A stretch of 64,000 nt of DNA from a virus (Duplodnaviria; Caudoviricetes): the IMG/VR virus record IMGVR_UViG_3300028887_000114, positions 6,588-70,587 of that record. The stretch is one strand, 5' to 3'. The notes below the pieces were generated by a model, which saw nothing but the letters and a program-made list of their open reading frames with translations, searched no databases and was not told where the DNA came from. Shown one piece after another: positions 8,295 through 29,968 of the stretch (within the stretch, counting starts at the first letter, position 1; each line of letters begins with the position of its first letter). The position numbers and the translations under genes were made by a program.

Positions 8295-8774
8295 ATGAAT
8301 TATTTAAAGATATATTTTGCAATTATTGCTAAAGCAGCAGGTCGAGAACCATCGATATTATATGATAAACATCATATAATTCCTCAGTCATTAGGTGGTC
8401 CAGACGTGCCTACAAATTGGATTTATTTGACCCCTAGGGAACATATGGTTGCACATCATTTGTTAGCCAGAGCATACCCGGATGTTGAATTATTGCAGTC
8501 TGGATTCAATCTAAAGAAAGTTTGCATTAAGTATTATGACTACTATAGATGGTCTATGAGGCTAAAAGATTTAGCAGGTATGATAGAATATAGTAAGAAT
8601 AAAAAAGAGATTATAACGCGTTTACGTGTGCTTCTGGACGCTATTGGTGATGTTGATTTAGATAAACATATTCCTGTTAAACAACAGCCTAATATGGTCA
8701 AACCTAAGCCAGCTACTGCAGAAAAACCAGAAAAACCAGAACCCAAGAAGTCCAAAAAGAAATCCAAAGAGTAA
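8295..8774 (+). CDS. HNH endonuclease-like protein with K/P-rich tail
   Basis: 'DKHHIIPQSLGGPDVPTNWIYLTPREHMVAHHLL' is a classic phage HNH motif. Confidence 0.8.
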   Translation: MNYLKIYFAIIAKAAGREPSILYDKHHIIPQSLGGPDVPTNWIYLTPREHMVAHHLLARAYPDVELLQSGFNLKKVCIKYYDYYRWSMRLKDLAGMIEYSKNKKEIITRLRVLLDAIGDVDLDKHIPVKQQPNMVKPKPATAEKPEKPEPKKSKKKSKE

Positions 8775-8973: not shown

Positions 8974-8981
8974 TATAAATA
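8974..8981 (+). promoter_or_regulatory. T4-type late promoter TATAAATA upstream of nrdD
   Basis: Exact consensus just after the terminator hairpin at 8930-8965. Confidence 0.45.
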
Positions 8982-9056: not shown

Positions 9057-11528
9057 ATGATTAAAAACGTAATTAAGCGAGATAATCGCAGACGAAAATT
9101 CAATATAGCAAAGGTAACTACAGCCATAGAAAATGCATTTAAGTCAATTAATGAGAAATATACAGAAGAGAGCATAGACCAGCTAGTTGATGAAGTAGTC
9201 GAGAAAATCTCCGCTAATGATGCCAAATCAGCAAGAGTTGAAGATATTCAGAATATTATTGAAAAGATATTAATGAATAGCGGATATGGAGCTGTAGCAA
9301 AGGCATTTATTTTATATAGAGATGAACGTAATCGTGCTCGTGAAACAAAATCAGAAATTGTAAAGACTATTAAGGAAATTACAGAATCTGATATTAAAAG
9401 TTCTAATATTTTAAGAGACAATGCTAATGAATCTGGTGCAACACCTGCTGGAACATACGGTAAGATTGCATCTGAAACAAACAAGATGTATAACCTATTG
9501 AATAATATCAATAGAAAGTATGCACAGGAACATAAGGACGGACATTTACATATCCATGACCTTAACCAGTATAACTTGACGTTCAACTGCTTATTTGCGC
9601 CAGTTGGAAAGTTATTGAAGAATGGTTTTGACTCTGGAACTGGTTTCTTACGTTCCCCGAAGTCAATCCAGACTGCAGCAGCATTGACAGCAGTTATCCT
9701 TCAGCTCCAGTCCAACCAGCAATATGGTGGTATCGCTGATGATAATCTCGATTTTGATTTGGCACCGTTTGTCGATATTTCATTTAGAAAGAATCTTAAG
9801 GAAGAATTAGAAAGATATATAGAATACAATCCAGATCATGAAGAAATGACCAATCTTGATGAAGTTGAAACAGCTTCTATGAACTGGCCTTCTGCACTTC
9901 TTTATACTAAGTTCCCTAAGATTTGTGTTATTAAGGCAATTCAGAAGACAGATGATGATACTCATCAGGCTATGGAAGGTCTTATTGGTAATTTGAATTC
10001 TTTGCAGTCTCGTTCTGGAAACCAGGTTCCATTTAGTTCTTTGAACTTTGGTCTTAATACTTCTAATTGTGGTCGTATGATTAGCAAGAATCTTATTAAG
10101 TCTCAGATGGAAGGTCTCGGCGACGGATTGACAGCAATTTTCCCAATTTTGATTTTCAAGTTGATGAAAGGTTACACAAAGAATCCAGAAGATCCTAACT
10201 ATGATTTGTATCTCGAATCTATCAAGTGTCTTGCTCGTAGATTCTATCCGAACTTTGTAAAGGTCGATAGTTCTTTCAATAAGCCATACATCAAGTATGA
10301 AACTAAGGAAGTTGAAATTTTTGAAAATGCTATTGGTGTTAAGGTTCGTGGTAAAGATGAAGCAACAATTATTCCAATGCAAGATCAGAAGTTTGATAAG
10401 TTTATTTATCAGTATGATGTAGGTCAAGGTGACTATTGGGAAATTGAAGAAATTTCTGGAAATAAGTTGAAGTTGAAGAAGCTTATTGAAAATACAACTA
10501 TTTCTACTATGGGTTGTAGAACAAGAGTTATTGGTAATATCAATGGTGCTGAACAGACAACTGGTAGAGGTAATTTTGCATTCCATACAATTAACCTTCC
10601 TAGACTTGCTATCGAAGCCCATATCGCAGCAAAGGATGAAGAAGAACGTAAGACTATTTTCTTCGAAAAGCTTGCTGAAATGCTTGAAGATGCAAAGGGA
10701 AGTTTGCTTGACAGATTTGCATTGATTTCTAATAAGACATACGAGAATTTCCCGTTCACTATGCAACAGGGTCTTTATCTCACATCTGACGACCAACCGC
10801 ATGAAGTTACTGATAAGATTGGTGAAGTTCTTAAGCAGGCTTCGTTGTCAATCGGTTACGTCGGTCTTGCTGAAACTATGTTACTCTTGACAGGTAAGAC
10901 TTATGGTGTCGATCATGAAATTGATGATTATGCTTTCTCTATTATTAAGACAATTCGTGATTTCGTTGATAAGACTCAGAAGGAAACACACTTGAACTGG
11001 TCTTGTTTCGCAACACCAGCTGAAGCAGTTGCAGGTCGTTTTGCTAACATCGATAAAAATCTTTTCCAGAACGAAAAGAAGCTTGCTGATGTAGATTTAC
11101 AGAGAGTATTTGGTAAGGGTTATTACACAAATAGCCATATGCTTGATTATTCTTTGGAAACTACTCTTGAAAACAAGATTAAGATGGAAGCACCATATCA
11201 CAAGATTACAAATGCTGGTCATATCTTCTATTATAAGTTGAATGGTGACTTGTCTAAGAATCTTGAAGCAGTCAAGGCAACTATTGATGCTATGTATGAT
11301 GGCGACTTAGGATATTTCACTTGCACATTTGACAGTGATACTTGTACTAAGTGCCATTTCCATGGAATTATCAATAATGAATGTCCATGTTGCGGTAATA
11401 AGAACGAAGACGAGATTATTCGTGTTAGAAGAATTACCGGATATTTGACTGGTTCTCCTAAGAAGACTATTTTCAAGTCTTGGAATGATGGAAAATTAGC
11501 AGAATTAAGAGACCGTCATAATATTTAA
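9057..11528 (+). CDS. nrdD: anaerobic (class III) ribonucleoside-triphosphate reductase with ATP cone
   Basis: N-terminal ATP cone (VIKRD...FNIAKV..AI); HIHDL; MGCRT; INLPRLA; CxxC...CxxC; glycyl-radical RVRRITGYL. Confidence 0.97.
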   Translation: MIKNVIKRDNRRRKFNIAKVTTAIENAFKSINEKYTEESIDQLVDEVVEKISANDAKSARVEDIQNIIEKILMNSGYGAVAKAFILYRDERNRARETKSEIVKTIKEITESDIKSSNILRDNANESGATPAGTYGKIASETNKMYNLLNNINRKYAQEHKDGHLHIHDLNQYNLTFNCLFAPVGKLLKNGFDSGTGFLRSPKSIQTAAALTAVILQLQSNQQYGGIADDNLDFDLAPFVDISFRKNLKEELERYIEYNPDHEEMTNLDEVETASMNWPSALLYTKFPKICVIKAIQKTDDDTHQAMEGLIGNLNSLQSRSGNQVPFSSLNFGLNTSNCGRMISKNLIKSQMEGLGDGLTAIFPILIFKLMKGYTKNPEDPNYDLYLESIKCLARRFYPNFVKVDSSFNKPYIKYETKEVEIFENAIGVKVRGKDEATIIPMQDQKFDKFIYQYDVGQGDYWEIEEISGNKLKLKKLIENTTISTMGCRTRVIGNINGAEQTTGRGNFAFHTINLPRLAIEAHIAAKDEEERKTIFFEKLAEMLEDAKGSLLDRFALISNKTYENFPFTMQQGLYLTSDDQPHEVTDKIGEVLKQASLSIGYVGLAETMLLLTGKTYGVDHEIDDYAFSIIKTIRDFVDKTQKETHLNWSCFATPAEAVAGRFANIDKNLFQNEKKLADVDLQRVFGKGYYTNSHMLDYSLETTLENKIKMEAPYHKITNAGHIFYYKLNGDLSKNLEAVKATIDAMYDGDLGYFTCTFDSDTCTKCHFHGIINNECPCCGNKNEDEIIRVRRITGYLTGSPKKTIFKSWNDGKLAELRDRHNI

Positions 11529-11545
11529 TAAAAAATAATTAGATA

Positions 11546-11579
11546 AAAATCATACGTGTCCAAAAACCGTATGATTTTT
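11546..11579 (+). terminator. intrinsic terminator
   Basis: AAAATCATACG-loop-CGTATGATTTTT after nrdD. Confidence 0.7.
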
Positions 11580-11603
11580 CTATCTTTATATAAAAGGAAT
11601 TAA

Positions 11604-11897
11604 ATGGTAGAAGTTTTGATGTTAATTTGTGGGTTTTGTGGAGCTGGTGCTTTTGCACTTTGTTCATTACCTCAAGTTATTAAATCTTATAAAAGTAAAT
11701 CGACTGGTGATATAAGTATTTTTTATATTATTTTGTCAATTATCGGTAATTTATGTAGTGCCGCTTATATTTTCTATACCAATTATATAAGTGGAATGTG
11801 GCAATATCCGCAATATGTAAATTATACTTTGGCAACAATACTTATATTTATTCTTCTTGGTTTAAAGTTAAAATATGATAAGGAAAATAAAGAATGA
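11604..11897 (+). CDS. PQ-loop / SemiSWEET-like 3-TM transporter
   Basis: 97 aa, three hydrophobic helices, 'SLPQVIKSYKSKSTGDIS' PQ-loop signature. Confidence 0.8.
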   Translation: MVEVLMLICGFCGAGAFALCSLPQVIKSYKSKSTGDISIFYIILSIIGNLCSAAYIFYTNYISGMWQYPQYVNYTLATILIFILLGLKLKYDKENKE

Positions 11898-12547
11898 ATG
11901 GTGTTTTAAATCTTGTTGGTATTCAGAAAAAAGATGATTTTTTGTATGGTTTACCAGTAGCAATGCGATATTACCGTGAAGAAAGAGGTAATTTAACTTA
12001 TGGTAATTTTAGACCATTTACTGGCTCTCTTAATTGGCAAACATTTGAAGACGTTAAGACATCTTTAGAAAAAGAAGTTTATTTTAGATGTAGAGAAGTT
12101 GCTAAAGTTTCAGAAATGAAAGAACCAAGAAAAGAAGAATGCGTACGGATTAGTGAACGTGCATCTATGCTTGTTGCTAAATTGATGAGTCTTTGTAATG
12201 ATATTGCGATTACTACAGCTGTAGGACAGGGTAATGTTATTATTTTAAATTCTAAATTTTATGATTTGTTATATAAGTTAACTTTTAGTTTTGCGGATGC
12301 TCCATTTATCAATGTTCTTAATGGTGATAATGGTAATTTAACTATTTGTGGAAGAGATACATTTAAATTAGACTTTGATGACAATTCTAATTATCCAGAA
12401 GCATTAATTGCATATCATAGTAATCAATCAACAATTAACGGAGTAATTCTTGGAGTTAATTCAGAAGATAATACATATGCAATTTGTTCTGATATTCAAG
12501 GAACAGAAAATTTTTATAGATTATTAAGGATAACTGATGAATTTTAG
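11894..12547 (+). CDS. truncated T4 gp23-like major capsid protein paralog
   Basis: 'LNLVGIQ...VAMRYY', 'LEKEVYFRCREVAKV', 'NDIAITTAVGQGNVIIL' and 'ENFYRLLRI' parallel gp23 segments. Confidence 0.55.
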   Translation: MNGVLNLVGIQKKDDFLYGLPVAMRYYREERGNLTYGNFRPFTGSLNWQTFEDVKTSLEKEVYFRCREVAKVSEMKEPRKEECVRISERASMLVAKLMSLCNDIAITTAVGQGNVIILNSKFYDLLYKLTFSFADAPFINVLNGDNGNLTICGRDTFKLDFDDNSNYPEALIAYHSNQSTINGVILGVNSEDNTYAICSDIQGTENFYRLLRITDEF

Positions 12548-13079
12548 TAAAATTGATCCGATGAGTATTGTCGACGGTGACGGATGTCGAGTAACACTTT
12601 TTGTTTCAGGTTGTAGAAATCATTGTAAAGGTTGTTTTAATCCAGAAACATGGAATTTCGATTTTGGTCAACCATTTACAGAAATTGAAGAAAATGAAAT
12701 TATCGAAGCATGTAGTAAGCCATATATTGCTGGTTTGACAATTCTTGGTGGAGAACCGATGGAACAAGAAAACCAAGCAGATGTTTATAAGCTTATTAAC
12801 CGTTTCAAGAGAGAATATCCAGGTAAAAATGTTTGGTTATTTACTGGTTATATCTATGAAAAAGATTTATTAGAAGGTCAAAGAAAAAATATACCTGGGT
12901 TAACTTCTTCTTTATTGGAAATGGTTGATATTCTTGTTGACGGACCATTTATTCTTGAACAAAAAGATTTAAATTTAAGATTTAGAGGAAGTACTAATCA
13001 AAGATTATTAACAAGAGAAGATAGAAAAAGGATATACGATGAATATACTAGACATGGTTGCGCGTCAAAAGAAAACTGA
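12537..13079 (+). CDS. nrdG: anaerobic RNR activating enzyme (radical SAM)
   Basis: 'SIVDGDGCRVTLFVSGCRNHCKGCFNPETW', 'GLTILGGEP', 'DGPF', 'FRGSTNQR'. Confidence 0.96.
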   Translation: MNFSKIDPMSIVDGDGCRVTLFVSGCRNHCKGCFNPETWNFDFGQPFTEIEENEIIEACSKPYIAGLTILGGEPMEQENQADVYKLINRFKREYPGKNVWLFTGYIYEKDLLEGQRKNIPGLTSSLLEMVDILVDGPFILEQKDLNLRFRGSTNQRLLTREDRKRIYDEYTRHGCASKEN

Positions 13080-13686
13080 AAAATCTGGAAATTATGCAGC
13101 AGTTTTAAGATATGTTCCACAATTCGGACTTACTAATAAAGAATCTGATAAGCTTGATTTAGCAATGGTTTTGGAACGTCAGCTTATTTTAGATGAAGAC
13201 TGGAAAGACGGAAGTAATGAAGAACAGAAAGAGTTAGATTTGATTCATGCATGTGTAAATATCGCAACAGTCGATGAATTACATGAAGATCCAAATCCTA
13301 CAACAGATAAGCAAGAACGTTGTGCAAAATTGTTGACACGTATAATATTAAATTCTAATAGTATTAGAACAGAAACAAGGCGTGGTGCTGGTAATTATGC
13401 TCTTGCTAATAATGCATTTATGAAGAAAATTGAAGAACTTGGTGGTTTTCCAAAATTCTTTGTAAATCAGTCTATAGATGGAACAGAATATTTAATTAAT
13501 GGATGTATTAAAATGAGCATCGCAACTTTTGACGAAGATACACCAACAATATTGATTGGATATTCTGGAAGTGCTAATCTTGATGGTGGTATCGCATTAT
13601 TAGAAGATGATGAAAATAACAGATATGCTATTGCAAATAGATTCTATAATACTGACAAATATTATCGTGTAATTAAGCTTAAGTAA
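13039..13686 (+). CDS. truncated T4 gp23-like major capsid protein paralog
   Basis: 'LLTRIILNSNSIRTETRRGAGNYALA' and 'ILIGYSGSANLDGGI' match gp23 'EIARQTGRGxGNFIIAS' and 'VGYKGxNEMDAGI'. Confidence 0.7.
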   Translation: MNILDMVARQKKTEKSGNYAAVLRYVPQFGLTNKESDKLDLAMVLERQLILDEDWKDGSNEEQKELDLIHACVNIATVDELHEDPNPTTDKQERCAKLLTRIILNSNSIRTETRRGAGNYALANNAFMKKIEELGGFPKFFVNQSIDGTEYLINGCIKMSIATFDEDTPTILIGYSGSANLDGGIALLEDDENNRYAIANRFYNTDKYYRVIKLK

Positions 13687-13689
13687 AAT

Positions 13690-13717
13690 AAAACCTGGAT
13701 TTAAGTCCAGGTTTTTT
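13690..13717. terminator. bidirectional terminator
   Basis: AAAACCTGGA-tttaag-TCCAGGTTTTTT between convergent genes. Confidence 0.85.
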
Positions 13718-13720
13718 ATT

Positions 13721-14143
13721 TTAAAAGTTATTTAAAAATGCATGCATTATCGCACCTTTTTGATAAATCGCATTACACTCTTCATAAACTGCTTTTTTAC
13801 TCTTTAATTTCTTAAAAGTGTCTTCAGTCATTGGATTTGGGTCTTCTGATTCCCAACCTAAATTCCAAGATTCCTGAAGGTCTTTTTTATTAGATTCGAA
13901 ATCTTTACAGTAACGTTCAATAACGATTTCGCCAATATCTTTACCAGTTGCATTTAATTCTTTTTCAGAAAGCATGGTATTGATAGTACCAATTTTTACA
14001 GTGTTTTGATAATAACCTCTACTCTGTGTAAAAGAAAGGAACTGATCTGCAGTTGAAAAATGCAGGTCAGCCTCATTTAACATAGGAGATTTTACGTTGT
14101 AATGATTTTCTTTTAAGATTTGTAAAGCTTCTTTTAAGTTCAT
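13721..14143 (-). CDS. late protein with shared N-terminal leader (putative internal head protein)
   Basis: Starts MNLKEALQILKENHYNVKSPMLNE. Confidence 0.7.
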   Translation of the reverse strand: MNLKEALQILKENHYNVKSPMLNEADLHFSTADQFLSFTQSRGYYQNTVKIGTINTMLSEKELNATGKDIGEIVIERYCKDFESNKKDLQESWNLGWESEDPNPMTEDTFKKLKSKKAVYEECNAIYQKGAIMHAFLNNF

Positions 14144-14161
14144 AGATGTATTCTTTAAATA

Positions 14162-14800
14162 TTAGAGTTCTTCGTTAATTCGATCAGCAGCGTCTTGTGG
14201 TGAAATAAGTCCTTGATTATAAAGCTCAGATGCAATTTGCTGTGCTCTTTGTAAATCATCATCATCAATCATACCGCCATCTTCTTGTGCAAGAGATAAT
14301 GCTTTTGCAATATAGTCTTGTTCTGCATTTGGGACAATTTCTTCAAGTTCTGCATCATCGACCATCGGTGCAAATTCTTCTTCATTGAAATAAAGTTCAA
14401 CCTTGTGTCCTGGTTTCTTCTTTTCTTCAACATAACCAAGTTCTTTAAGAACTTCAGACCATTGCGTATTTCTATATTTTCTAAGAGAAGACTTTACGAA
14501 TGCAATTTCTCTAGGAGTCAAAACTTGACCAGCTTGAACTTTCTTAGCTAATGGAGTAAGATATGCAGCGTCAGTCTGGTTAAATCCTCTAAAGTTACGT
14601 AAAACTGTTCTACCAGAACGTTTTTCAAAGTCTACTTGACGACCAAACATACCGACAAGAAGAATAATAACAAATTTATCATTTTCCAAATATTCTTTAA
14701 TTCTCTGGTTAAGCTGGTAATTTGACGTATAAACCTCTTCGTTCATAACCTTATAACCATGTGCTTGAACCACTTTAATAGCTTCTGCAATTTTCTTCAT
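14162..14800 (-). CDS. late protein with shared N-terminal leader (putative internal head protein)
   Basis: Starts MKKIAEAIKVVQAHGYKVMNE; late promoter at 14821-14828. Confidence 0.7.
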   Translation of the reverse strand: MKKIAEAIKVVQAHGYKVMNEEVYTSNYQLNQRIKEYLENDKFVIILLVGMFGRQVDFEKRSGRTVLRNFRGFNQTDAAYLTPLAKKVQAGQVLTPREIAFVKSSLRKYRNTQWSEVLKELGYVEEKKKPGHKVELYFNEEEFAPMVDDAELEEIVPNAEQDYIAKALSLAQEDGGMIDDDDLQRAQQIASELYNQGLISPQDAADRINEEL

Positions 14801-28750: not shown

Positions 28751-29968
28751 CTAATTTTCAATAAATTTAAAAGTATAACCGCCAGCTTTTTTATTTTTAC
28801 CATTACATACTCTAGAAATACAGCATTTATCGATATTTAATTGTCTTGCGCATTCATTTATACAATCATAAACAATACCAGTTTCTATACATATTACTTT
28901 CTTTTTATGTTCACTATTATATAAATTTTTTGAGGCTGACAGTCTCATTTTATTTTTTGTTTCTTCAGATAATTTTCTACCAGGTCGTCCTTTCTTTTTA
29001 TTAACTTCATCCGAATAATGTTTACCTAAATTTGCTATACGTAATTTTTCACGTTCTTCTAATGATTTAACTCTACCTTTTTGAATATTAGATAATTTTT
29101 CAGAAATTAACTTTTTCTTATTAGGATCTATTTTAGTTTTTCCAATGTTATTTAAATCCACGAATTCAAAATGTAAATCAGATACAGTATGTTGTTTATT
29201 ATTACAGCATTTACTTATACTATTATCATTTATACCGATTTTAATAGAAGCGTCCATAATAGATTCGTATATAATACCAGTTTCTATACACCTAACTTCT
29301 TTTTTATTAGATTTATTTAATTTGTAATAATATTGTTTTAATGTTATATTATTTTTCTTTATATAATCATCTATAGTTTGACAGTTTTGTATAAATTCAT
29401 TTATATCATCTGACATTTTACAAAATCTGTAATTTAATGCTTGATTATCTTGTTTTGTAATTACATGTCTAATAGAATCTTTACAAATTTTTAATTCTCG
29501 TGCAGCATTTCCAATAGAAGTATAATATTTATTTGTTTCATAGCAATATATAACAATTTGATTATCTCTAATTATATTTCTAAATTCTTCAAGTTGTTCG
29601 GTAGTAAATTTGCGACCAGTATTAGTCAATCTAATTTTATTCTTTGTTTCTTCAGTCATTACAAAAGTACGACCTAGTGTACCAGTCCCGCCTAATGTTT
29701 TATTATAACCGAAATTTCTGTCAAATGAATTATAAACATTAATCCAAAATTTTTCGCGTTCATTTAATAAACTTGGTTCACATTCTTCTATAATTTCAAA
29801 ATCGAAATTTTCAAGACCATATTTATTAAATGCAGATTGTAAATGATTATTTAATTTATGCCATTTATATTCTGTTTTCCAACGTTTAATTATATCTTTA
29901 GATTGCCCAATATAGCATTTATTATTGACTTTATTTGTTATTTTATAAATACCACAAATTTTTTCCAT
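28751..29968 (-). mobile_element. free-standing GIY-YIG homing endonuclease with NUMOD3/NUMOD1 repeats
   Basis: 'CGIYKITNKVNNKCYIGQSKDIIKRW', 'LNEREKFWI', 'GYNKTLGG', three 'V.CIETG..Y.SI..A' repeats. Confidence 0.93.

What the first reader, a model, noticed from the sequence alone, without database searches (positions are those of the whole stretch)
11894..13686. Two approximately 215-aa major-capsid (gp23) mini-paralogs flanking nrdG
Seen: both ORFs keep ordered gp23 landmarks: a 'GVQPM..G..FALR'-like N-segment, 'RRGAGN/VGQGN', 'GY.G....D.GI' and a terminal 'YYRVIKL'. They are less than half the size of gp23 and appear to lack most of the P-domain, E-loop and insertion domain. They are translationally coupled in a nucleotide-metabolism operon, not a head operon. 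Established: several defences sense capsid protein (CapRel-SJ46, Lit/Gol peptide, PifA). Inference: these may be A-domain-only decoys or antagonists of capsid-sensing immunity, or modulators of assembly.
Basis: partly seen in the sequence, partly recalled or inferred. Interest (0 to 1): 0.7.

Follow-up and report, generated by a model that had tools for sequence, protein, structure and literature searches.

The report
Two mini capsid paralogs flanking nrdG
An uncultured giant gut phage carries two intact, fast-evolving 215-residue cut-down copies of the T4-type head protein inside its anaerobic ribonucleotide-reductase operon. They keep the core of the capsid fold but lack the parts that lock subunits into a shell, and they belong to an old family I could not find described, whose job is unknown.

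Summary
ORF A (11894-12547) and ORF B (13039-13686) are real gp23/HK97-fold proteins. Pfam Gp23 scores 30.9 bits for B (above the cut-off) and 20.9 for A. AlphaFold models have pLDDT 88.6 and 90.3. VIA-align to T4 gp23 gives Z 14.4 and 14.9, with 197/215 and 200/217 residues aligned.

They are not A-domain-only. The whole compact HK97 core is kept. By sequence alignment the propeptide, N-arm, insertion domain, long spine helix and P-loop are missing, so they should not be able to build a lattice.

They are not decaying copies. Both are intact in dozens of sequence clusters, dN/dS is below 1, and they sit in an old clade of about 35 mini clusters, far from the resident full-length capsid protein. 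They evolve much faster than their neighbours: 47-58% amino-acid identity against 86-98%, and omega 0.3-0.8 (A) against 0.03-0.28.

The order SemiSWEET - mini - nrdG, with overlapping genes, persists in relatives whose mini is only 26% identical. Distant minis also lie in non-head modules.

Function is unproven. My best guess (about 0.3) is a soluble capsomer-core mimic acting in phage-host or phage-phage conflict. Rivals are a radical-SAM/RNR accessory resembling A-domain encapsulins, or a head-assembly factor. This scan noted similar minis before on other DNA.

The parts
8974..8981 (+). T4-type late-promoter core TATAAATA, 83 nt upstream of nrdD
   Evidence: Exact motif. It is conserved at -83/-84 in L003 and L006, and the same core lies 51-58 nt upstream of the capsid and scaffold genes of the complete relative G001. 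This is a consensus match only; expression timing is not shown.
9057..11528 (+). nrdD, anaerobic ribonucleotide reductase (823 aa)
   Evidence: NCBIfam TIGR02487 NrdD, 472.7 bits against a cut-off of 326. 98% amino-acid identity to relatives, omega 0.03-0.07.
11545..11583 (+). Conserved hairpin plus T-run between nrdD and the SemiSWEET gene (terminator/attenuator-like)
   Evidence: 12-pair consensus stem in 4 relatives, 2 pairs with compensatory changes. Sequence read. Only about 20 nt lie between the T-run and the next start codon, which leaves no room for a promoter.
11604..11897 (+). 97-aa PQ-loop / SemiSWEET-like membrane protein
   Evidence: Pfam PQ-loop, 45.5 bits. NCBIfam SemiSWEET_2 is weak at 28 bits. 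Its stop overlaps the start of A (ATGA).
11894..12547 (+). Mini-gp23 A (217 aa), a pared-down HK97 core
   Evidence: Pfam Gp23 20.9 bits. AF2 pLDDT 90.3. gp23 Z 14.9 with 200/217 residues aligned. 15 homologous clusters, mostly 210-219 aa. omega 0.29-0.77.
12537..13079 (+). nrdG, radical-SAM activase of NrdD (180 aa)
   Evidence: Fer4_12 166 bits. TIGR02491 NrdG 170.3 bits against a cut-off of 126.1.
13039..13686 (+). Mini-gp23 B (215 aa), a pared-down HK97 core
   Evidence: Pfam Gp23 30.9 bits, above the cut-off. phrog_138 major head protein 27.5 bits. AF2 pLDDT 88.6. gp23 Z 14.4 with 197/215 residues aligned. 27 homologous clusters of 214-223 aa. omega 0.09-0.43.
13690..13715 (.). Bidirectional intrinsic terminator that closes the operon
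   Evidence: 11-pair G+C-containing stem followed by a T-run on both strands.

Best explanation
Shown: A and B are intact members of an old 'mini-gp23' subfamily that I could not find described. Each is a complete but pared-down HK97 core. It keeps the short hairpin that replaces the E-loop/insertion domain, one short helix, part of the P-domain sheet and the whole A-domain, including the TRRGxGN loop and the helix that forms the intracapsomer interface in T4 gp23. By sequence alignment it lacks the propeptide that docks on the scaffold, the N-arm, the insertion domain, the long spine helix and the P-loop, which are the elements that join capsomers.

Inferred: they therefore cannot be shell building blocks. 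They act as soluble proteins through the retained capsomer-core surface, by forming small rings or by docking on whatever binds a gp23-type A-domain. They are made from the nrdD-SemiSWEET-A-nrdG-B transcription unit and not with the head genes.

My most likely role, held at low confidence, is a capsid-protein mimic used in conflict. It would be a non-assembling look-alike of the major capsid protein that occupies host sensors of gp23-type capsid protein, or poisons the capsomers of rival co-infecting phages. Two divergent paralogues would widen its reach.
For: Fold and homology.
Deleted lattice elements, mapped on T4 gp23 and on the relative's 439-aa capsid protein. The functional sites of gp23 are taken from PMC9546572: P-loop residues 457-461 and the short P helix make intercapsomer contacts, and the helix carrying residues 381/387 is the intracapsomer interface.
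The best-conserved segment in both families is the TRRGxGN loop.
Not a recent or decaying copy: 34 of 35 minis fall in one clade (SH-like support 0.80). A and B fall in a 21-member clade (0.91). The resident-type capsid protein lies far away. ORFs are intact in at least 42 clusters, and about 35 mini clusters at 50% identity were found library-wide.
Conflict-like evolution: against L003 the amino-acid identities are nrdD 98%, SemiSWEET 92%, nrdG 86%, A 47% and B 58%. dN of A is 0.44 against 0.01-0.12 for nrdD, SemiSWEET, nrdG and down2 and 0.22 for down1, at comparable dS except for nrdD. omega is 0.29-0.77 for A and 0.09-0.43 for B, against 0.03-0.28 for neighbours.
The slot upstream of nrdG holds an A-type mini here but a B-clade mini (26% identical) in L100, and a P0044-like mini in L007, while nrdG stays 70-72% identical.
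Every context examined was a non-head neighbourhood of a phage fragment carrying T4-type genes. That fits a role tied to gp23 biology and not to one enzyme.
Against: There is no direct evidence of any binding partner. No precedent for a capsid-mimic anti-defence protein turned up in the literature searches. PADLOC gave nothing.
Elevated omega could simply reflect weak, fold-only constraint. No site-level test for positive selection was possible with 5-7 DNA sequences.
The conserved, overlapping SemiSWEET-mini-nrdG arrangement, and the mini + radical-SAM pairs in relatives, point instead to the enzyme module.
The hairpin/T-run upstream suggests low expression.
A late-promoter-like TATAAATA upstream of nrdD means early expression, which a decoy would need, is not established.
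Ring formation is inferred from retained elements and was not modelled, because no multimer prediction was available.
Confidence: 0.3

Rival explanations
1. Enzyme-module accessory, working like Family 4 'A-domain encapsulins'. The minis would form small oligomers that bind, stabilise or shield the oxygen-sensitive radical-SAM activase NrdG (and a second radical-SAM enzyme in relatives). They might do this at the membrane with the SemiSWEET-like protein.
For: SemiSWEET-mini-nrdG with overlapping genes is kept in lineages whose mini is only 26% identical, while the surrounding genes are reshuffled.
In the G001 clade the order is A-nrdG-B-radical SAM 2. The best NCBIfam hits of the second enzyme are NrdG2/NrdG, which is compatible with duplication of a mini+activase pair.
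Distant minis sit beside ThyX, MazG, a deoxyribosyltransferase-like gene and RNR.
Precedent: truncated HK97 proteins lie in two-gene operons with hydrogenase, OsmC, GAPDH or DeoC, and a GAPDH complex is reported (PMC8346489). B residues 90-215 match the Family 4 structure 2PK8 at Z 8.4.
The attenuator implies NrdG-like low dosage.
Against: The mini diverges far faster than its supposed partner (26-47% identity against 70-86% for NrdG).
The pairing is not fixed. A B-clade mini precedes nrdG in L100 and a P0044-like mini does so in L007. B persists here without the second radical-SAM enzyme.
Other minis lie next to unrelated genes: a PD-(D/E)XK nuclease, a Metallophos protein and TerL.
Gene overlap is the default in this phage, and synteny among relatives is not independent evidence.
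Confidence: 0.25
2. Factor for the phage's own head assembly. The mini would be a holdase or cap that binds the A-domain interface of the full-length capsid protein, to delay or steer capsomer formation or size determination in a very large capsid. Alternatively it is a low-copy head component.
For: The intracapsomer interface elements are retained and are among the best-conserved segments.
Every context examined carried T4-type genes, and the complete relative G001 has a gp23-type capsid protein.
A T4-type late-promoter core lies upstream of nrdD, the same motif as upstream of the capsid and scaffold genes of G001.
G001 has only one full-length Gp23-family gene and no gp24-like vertex paralogue.
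Against: The genes are never in the head module in the loci examined.
There is no propeptide or capsid-targeting leader, and none of the elements needed to sit in a lattice.
A partner of a conserved capsid protein would be expected to evolve slowly, yet A and B are the fastest genes in the block.
The copy number (one or two) varies among close relatives.
Confidence: 0.2
3. Functionless remnants: capsid-gene fragments trapped inside an operon and drifting.
For: omega is high for A in distant comparisons (0.66-0.77). No function is known.
Against: The ORFs are full-length, with conserved start and end, in at least 42 clusters at 90% identity and about 35 clusters at 50% identity across very different phages. 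omega is 0.09-0.30 in close pairs. The predicted folds are confident and compact. The same deletion boundaries are shared family-wide, and an aromatic residue conserved across most minis (W55 in B, W48 in A) aligns with a non-aromatic residue in the capsid proteins. The clade is old and monophyletic.
Confidence: 0.03

Closest known systems
T4 gp23 major capsid protein and gp24 vertex protein (Pfam PF07068, HK97 fold)
   Same: They are homologous: Pfam and PHROG hits, shared motifs, and the best structural matches (Z 14-15). The A-domain, the TRRGxGN-type loop, the interface helix and the C-terminal strand are retained.
   Different: The minis are 215 aa against 521 and 427 aa. They have no propeptide, N-arm, insertion domain, long spine helix or P-loop. 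They are not in a head module. They form a separate old clade and evolve fast.
Family 4 'A-domain encapsulins' (DUF1884; PDB 2PK8, P. furiosus PF0899; Andreas and Giessen 2021, PMC8346489)
   Same: Both are truncated HK97-fold proteins that cannot form a normal shell and are encoded in tight operons with enzymes, some oxygen-sensitive or nucleotide-related. Function is unknown in both. 2PK8 matches B residues 90-215 at Z 8.4.
   Different: Family 4 proteins are about 100 aa and A-domain only, and occur in hyperthermophilic archaea and a few Bacteroidota. They have no detectable sequence link to gp23. The minis here are twice as long, keep P-domain parts, are clearly gp23-derived, are phage-encoded, and gave no DUF1884 hit in the Pfam scan.
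Shell-forming encapsulins (Families 1-3)
   Same: HK97 fold used outside virion building. The structural matches are Z 9.6-10.6.
   Different: Encapsulins keep the N-arm/N-helix, E-loop and P-domain and form closed shells with cargo-targeting peptides. None of this is present or shown here.
Capsid-protein triggers of abortive-infection systems
   Same: These are the systems a gp23 look-alike could interfere with. MAFFT left that stretch gapped.
   Different: No such defence or interaction was tested. No capsid-mimic inhibitor turned up in the searches.

Membership tests
Gp23 family (PF07068), HK97-fold capsid proteins | Sequence match to the family profile above the curated cut-off | tested here: met
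   B scores 30.9 bits against a cut-off of 24.4. A scores 20.9 bits (E 2.7e-4), below the cut-off, but is linked to B by BLASTP E 3e-9 and by a shared profile.
Gp23 family (PF07068), HK97-fold capsid proteins | HK97 fold | tested here: met
   VIA-align to T4 gp23: Z 14.4 (197/215 aligned, rmsd 4.1) for B and Z 14.9 (200/217, rmsd 3.9) for A. Foldseek E 9e-8 to 7vrt.
Functional major capsid / vertex protein (gp23 / gp24 role) | Lattice-forming elements: N-arm, E-loop or I-domain linkers, spine helix, P-loop | tested here: not met
   In the alignment to T4 gp23 and the G001 capsid protein, 0-2 of 28 spine-helix residues, 4-12 of 111 I-domain residues and 1 of 40 N-arm residues are covered, and the P-loop hairpin is replaced by a 4-6 residue turn.
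Functional major capsid / vertex protein (gp23 / gp24 role) | N-terminal propeptide and location in the head module with scaffold and protease | tested here: not met
   The minis start at the equivalent of gp23 residue about 105. They lie in the nrdD-nrdG operon. The true capsid gene of relative G001 lies about 60 kb away, next to a scaffold-like gene.
Family 4 A-domain encapsulins (DUF1884) | About 100-aa protein consisting of the A-domain only; Pfam DUF1884 match | tested here: not met
   The proteins are 215-217 aa with the whole model aligned to gp23. No DUF1884 hit appeared at E up to 1 in the Pfam scan.
Family 4 A-domain encapsulins (DUF1884) | Structural likeness to 2PK8 | tested here: met
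   2pk8_A: Z 8.4, rmsd 2.9, 90 residues aligned, on B residues 90-215.
Family 4 A-domain encapsulins (DUF1884) | Conserved operon with an enzyme component | tested here: met
   Mini-nrdG overlap in the window, L003-L006 and L100, and adjacency in L007. B is followed by a second radical-SAM gene in L003-L006. Physical association is not testable here.
Shell-forming encapsulins (Families 1-3) | Self-assembly into closed shells and a cargo-loading peptide on the partner enzyme | not testable with these tools
   No multimer prediction was available and no cargo motif was searched. The lattice elements are missing, which argues against a closed shell.
Anti-defence decoy of capsid-sensing immunity | Binds or blocks a capsid-sensing defence protein; expressed before the capsid protein | not testable with these tools
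   PADLOC gave no hit. Timing is unresolved: sigma-70-like matches are at chance level, and a late-type TATAAATA lies upstream of nrdD.

The most novel reading that the evidence does not exclude
Mini-gp23 proteins are a phage-borne counterpart of A-domain encapsulins. They would be capsomer-sized rings, possibly A/B hetero-rings, that dock onto and protect oxygen-labile radical-SAM activases such as NrdG. That would be a capsid fold repurposed inside a virus as an enzyme chaperone or mini-compartment. Equally novel would be the first capsid-protein mimic that disarms capsid-sensing immunity or poisons the heads of rival phages.
Probability: 0.25. Interest if true: 0.85.

Novelty: new variant of a known kind. 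Interest (0 to 1): 0.6.

Why it matters
HK97-fold proteins are known as shell builders, in phage and herpesvirus capsids and in encapsulins. Here a phage keeps, beside its real capsid gene, an old and widespread family of cut-down HK97 cores that cannot build a shell. The family is conserved as intact genes, evolves fast, and is wired into non-structural operons.

That implies a second, non-structural use of the capsid fold within viruses. It would be either an enzyme partner, which would give an experimental handle on the equally unexplained A-domain encapsulins, or a capsid look-alike used in conflict, a counter-measure type I found no report of.

At about 215 residues the family also marks how small a still-foldable HK97 core can be, which is useful for protein design. 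Databases currently label such proteins 'major capsid protein', which will mislead annotation and counts of capsid genes.

Tried and rejected
Cultured-phage searches found nothing. Megablast of the locus and tblastn of B and of a distant mini (P0066) against 50,697 phage records gave no match. The minis have no PHROG of their own, only weak hits to phrog_138.

phmmer of B against PDB sequences gave only noise, so fold comparison was needed.

The ESM Atlas holds a poor model of B (pLDDT 0.34) and returned only unrelated rows.

PADLOC gave no hits for A, B, the SemiSWEET protein or the two downstream genes. NCBIfam gave none for A or B.

The 427-kb and 244-kb contigs holding B homologues could therefore not be read, and IMG/VR loci were used instead.

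The search for related loci failed on the most diverse alignment and found nothing for two subfamilies.

Rejected readings:
- A-domain-only: nearly the whole protein aligns to gp23.
- Recent copy of the resident capsid gene: the tree places the G001 capsid protein far from the minis.
- Vertex (gp24-like) protein: the lattice elements are missing.
- DNA mimic: the pI of about 5 is not unusual compared with neighbours.
- Fixed pairing of A with NrdG and B with the second radical-SAM enzyme: B-clade minis precede nrdG in L100 and L007.

Literature searches for truncated capsid paralogues or capsid decoys found no description of this family.
Full report
WHAT IS THERE. The window is an IMG/VR fragment of 70.6 kb. 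CheckV rates it 17% complete, which points to a genome of roughly 400 kb. G+C is about 32%.

At the stated coordinates lie, on the + strand:
- nrdD, 9057-11528
- a 97-aa PQ-loop/SemiSWEET-like membrane protein, 11604-11897
- ORF A, 11894-12547 (217 aa)
- nrdG, 12537-13079
- ORF B, 13039-13686 (215 aa)

The gene overlaps are 4, 11 and 41 nt, and a bidirectional terminator at 13690-13715 closes the unit. nrdD and nrdG pass NCBIfam equivalog cut-offs.

Between nrdD and the SemiSWEET gene is a hairpin followed by a T-run. It is conserved in four relatives, with two compensatory pairs. There is no room for a promoter behind it, so SemiSWEET-A-nrdG-B probably depends on read-through. That is an inference.

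A and B are paralogues (24% identity, E 3e-9). Both hit Pfam Gp23 at profile positions 216-317: B scores 30.9 bits, above the cut-off, and A scores 20.9 bits. B also hits PHROG 138, major head protein.

AlphaFold models built on family alignments are confident: B has pLDDT 88.6 and pTM 0.85, A has pLDDT 90.3 and pTM 0.89. Foldseek ranks T4 gp23 and gp24 first. An independent all-against-all alignment gives T4 gp23 Z 14.4 (197 of 215 residues) for B and Z 14.9 (200 of 217) for A, with gp24 at Z 14.0 and 14.2. Many other HK97 capsids and encapsulins follow at Z 9-13.

WHICH PARTS ARE KEPT. I aligned A and B to T4 gp23 and to the 439-aa capsid protein of a complete relative. Functional sites of gp23 were taken from PMC9546572.

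Kept:
- the strand corresponding to 'GVQP...FALR'
- the return strand of the I-domain linker (E-loop equivalent), now a tight hairpin
- one 14-15-residue helix
- the A-domain (83 of 94 positions), including the TRRGxGN loop and the short helix that carries the gp24-bypass sites at the intracapsomer interface
- the C-terminal 'YYR' strand

Lost:
- the propeptide and N-arm
- the insertion domain
- the long spine helix (0-2 of 28 positions by sequence)
- most of the region after it
- the P-loop hairpin that makes the quasi-threefold contacts

An aromatic residue (W55 in B, W48 in A) is conserved across most minis and aligns with a non-aromatic residue in the capsid proteins.

So these are not 'A-domain-only' proteins. 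They are minimal whole HK97 cores stripped of every lattice-forming extension. Because I could not read model coordinates, it is unsettled whether the short helix is a remnant of the spine helix or the short P-domain helix.

NOT DECAYING, NOT RECENT COPIES. B has 27 homologous clusters of 214-223 aa at 57-97% identity. A has 15, mostly of 210-219 aa.

An exhaustive profile search of 1.8 billion representatives found 117 hits. About 35 clusters of 178-252-aa proteins cover the whole profile and score highest. Full-length capsid proteins score lower and match only the C-terminal half.

I built a tree of the shared 129 columns. 34 of 35 minis fall in one clade (SH-like support 0.80). A and B fall in a 21-member subclade (0.91) with different nearest neighbours. 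The relative's own capsid protein sits among full-length proteins elsewhere. The tree is short and only moderately supported. Together with the shared deletion boundaries, it argues for one old origin.

The complete relative G001 (415,750 bp, terminal repeats) has one full-length gp23-type gene, exactly two minis and a 73-aa ORF with a weak Gp23 match.

EVOLUTIONARY RATE. Against relative L003 the amino-acid identities are nrdD 98%, SemiSWEET 92%, nrdG 86%, downstream genes 68-79%, A 47% and B 58%.

Nei-Gojobori estimates of omega:
- nrdD 0.03-0.07
- SemiSWEET 0.06-0.14
- nrdG 0.10-0.28
- downstream genes 0.04-0.20
- A 0.29-0.60 in close pairs and 0.66-0.77 in distant ones
- B 0.09-0.43

Selection is therefore purifying but much weaker, or partly diversifying. 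Only 5-7 DNA sequences were at hand, so no site test was possible.

CONTEXT IN RELATIVES.
- L003-L006 keep nrdD-SemiSWEET-A-nrdG-B and add a 309-aa radical-SAM gene directly after B. That gene is absent from this record.
- In L100 the SemiSWEET tail is 90% identical and nrdG 72% identical. The mini between them is a 245-aa member of the B clade, only 26% identical to A or B, and overlaps nrdG by 8 nt. There is no second mini.
- In L007 a P0044-like mini precedes nrdG (70% identical) and tail-fibre-like genes follow directly.
- Distant minis lie between a deoxyribosyltransferase-like gene and ThyX/MazG near RNR and the clamp loader (L013-L015).
- Others lie between gp32 and a PD-(D/E)XK nuclease (L094), or between a Metallophos gene and a T4-type terminase N-domain in another fragment, estimated 40% complete at 165 kb, so probably another giant phage (L096).

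None of these loci is a head module.

EXPRESSION TIMING IS OPEN. Sigma-70-like matches are at chance level. A T4-type late-promoter core, TATAAATA, lies 83 nt upstream of nrdD and is conserved in relatives. The same core lies 51-58 nt upstream of the capsid and scaffold genes of G001.

INTERPRETATION. What is shown: a conserved, fast-evolving, shell-incompetent HK97 core family, encoded in non-structural operons in every phage context I examined.

What is inferred: the proteins act in solution through the retained capsomer-core surface.

For the biological role I rank four readings:
1. A capsid-protein mimic in conflict, acting against host sensors or rival capsomers (0.30). This rests on the rate pattern, the turnover of paralogues in a fixed slot, and the family-wide link to gp23-type phages rather than to one enzyme.
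2. An accessory of the radical-SAM/RNR module, analogous to Family 4 A-domain encapsulins (0.25). This rests on the persistent SemiSWEET-mini-nrdG unit, the mini + radical-SAM pairs, the 2PK8 match and the published precedent (PMC8346489).
3. A factor in the phage's own head assembly (0.20).
4. Functionless remnants (0.03).

The remainder is other, unknown roles. None of the first three is excluded.

COMPARISON WITH WHAT IS KNOWN. I found no paper describing truncated gp23 paralogues. UniProt-derived viral models include small unnamed or 'major capsid protein' entries of 149-250 aa that match B, so the family exists in databases under a misleading name.

Earlier notes of this scan describe similar minis in three other genomes. 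I checked one claim, the mini/radical-SAM alternation, and it holds in L003-L006 but not in this window.

LIMITS. No cultured relative exists. No multimer modelling or site-level selection test was possible.

Noticed in passing
window 11545-11583: A hairpin plus T-run lies between nrdD and the SemiSWEET gene. It is conserved in four relatives, with two compensatory base-pair changes. It is a likely attenuator that sets lower expression of SemiSWEET-A-nrdG-B than of nrdD.
   Followed up: partly
window 8974-8981; L008 about 1206 and 148: The T4-type late-promoter core TATAAATA lies 83 nt upstream of nrdD and is conserved in L003 and L006. It also lies 51-58 nt upstream of the capsid and scaffold genes of the complete relative. 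The window has 22 copies against 13.8 expected, many of them 20-40 nt upstream of start codons.
   Followed up: partly
window 11604-11897: A 97-aa PQ-loop/SemiSWEET-like membrane protein is encoded inside the anaerobic RNR operon. It is 89-92% conserved in relatives. Its role in a phage is unexplained.
   Followed up: no
L003 10655-11584 (also L004-L006): A 309-aa radical-SAM gene with weak NrdG2/NrdG-like and pVip-like N-terminal matches follows mini B in relatives. It is absent from this 70.6-kb record.
   Followed up: partly
window 9057-11528: nrdD is far more conserved than its neighbours even at synonymous sites (dS 0.22 against 0.36-1.07), which suggests recent exchange or a sweep. Its NrdD model matches are split (residues 1-421 and 479-820), which implies an insertion of about 58 aa.
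   Followed up: no
L009 1408-1629 (-), in relative G001: A 73-aa ORF scores 28 bits to Gp23 profile positions 288-327 ('...GFKG...GIIYCPY'). It is a possible third, tiny capsid-derived fragment in the 416-kb genome.
   Followed up: no
L097, L098: Contigs of 191 kb and 173 kb that carry a B homologue (60% identity) are binned in goat-gut MAGs labelled Methanobrevibacter. This is probably a composition-binning artefact, but it places the phage group in ruminant guts and leaves the host open.
   Followed up: no
P0085, P0091 (about 800 aa): Long proteins near the mini clade carry gp23-like matches in more than one stretch of a single polypeptide. They may be tandem HK97 domains or fused gene calls.
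   Followed up: no
window 8295-8774 and 28751-29968: Homing-endonuclease genes (GIY-YIG/HNH types) are present. One lies directly upstream of the nrdD promoter region, as is common around nrd genes in T4-like phages.
   Followed up: no
window 13721-14800 (-): The two genes downstream of B on the opposite strand begin with a similar short N-terminal motif ('..EA(L/I)..(L/V)....Y.V'). The pairwise match is not significant (E 0.72). It may relate to the leader motif noted elsewhere in this window.
   Followed up: partly
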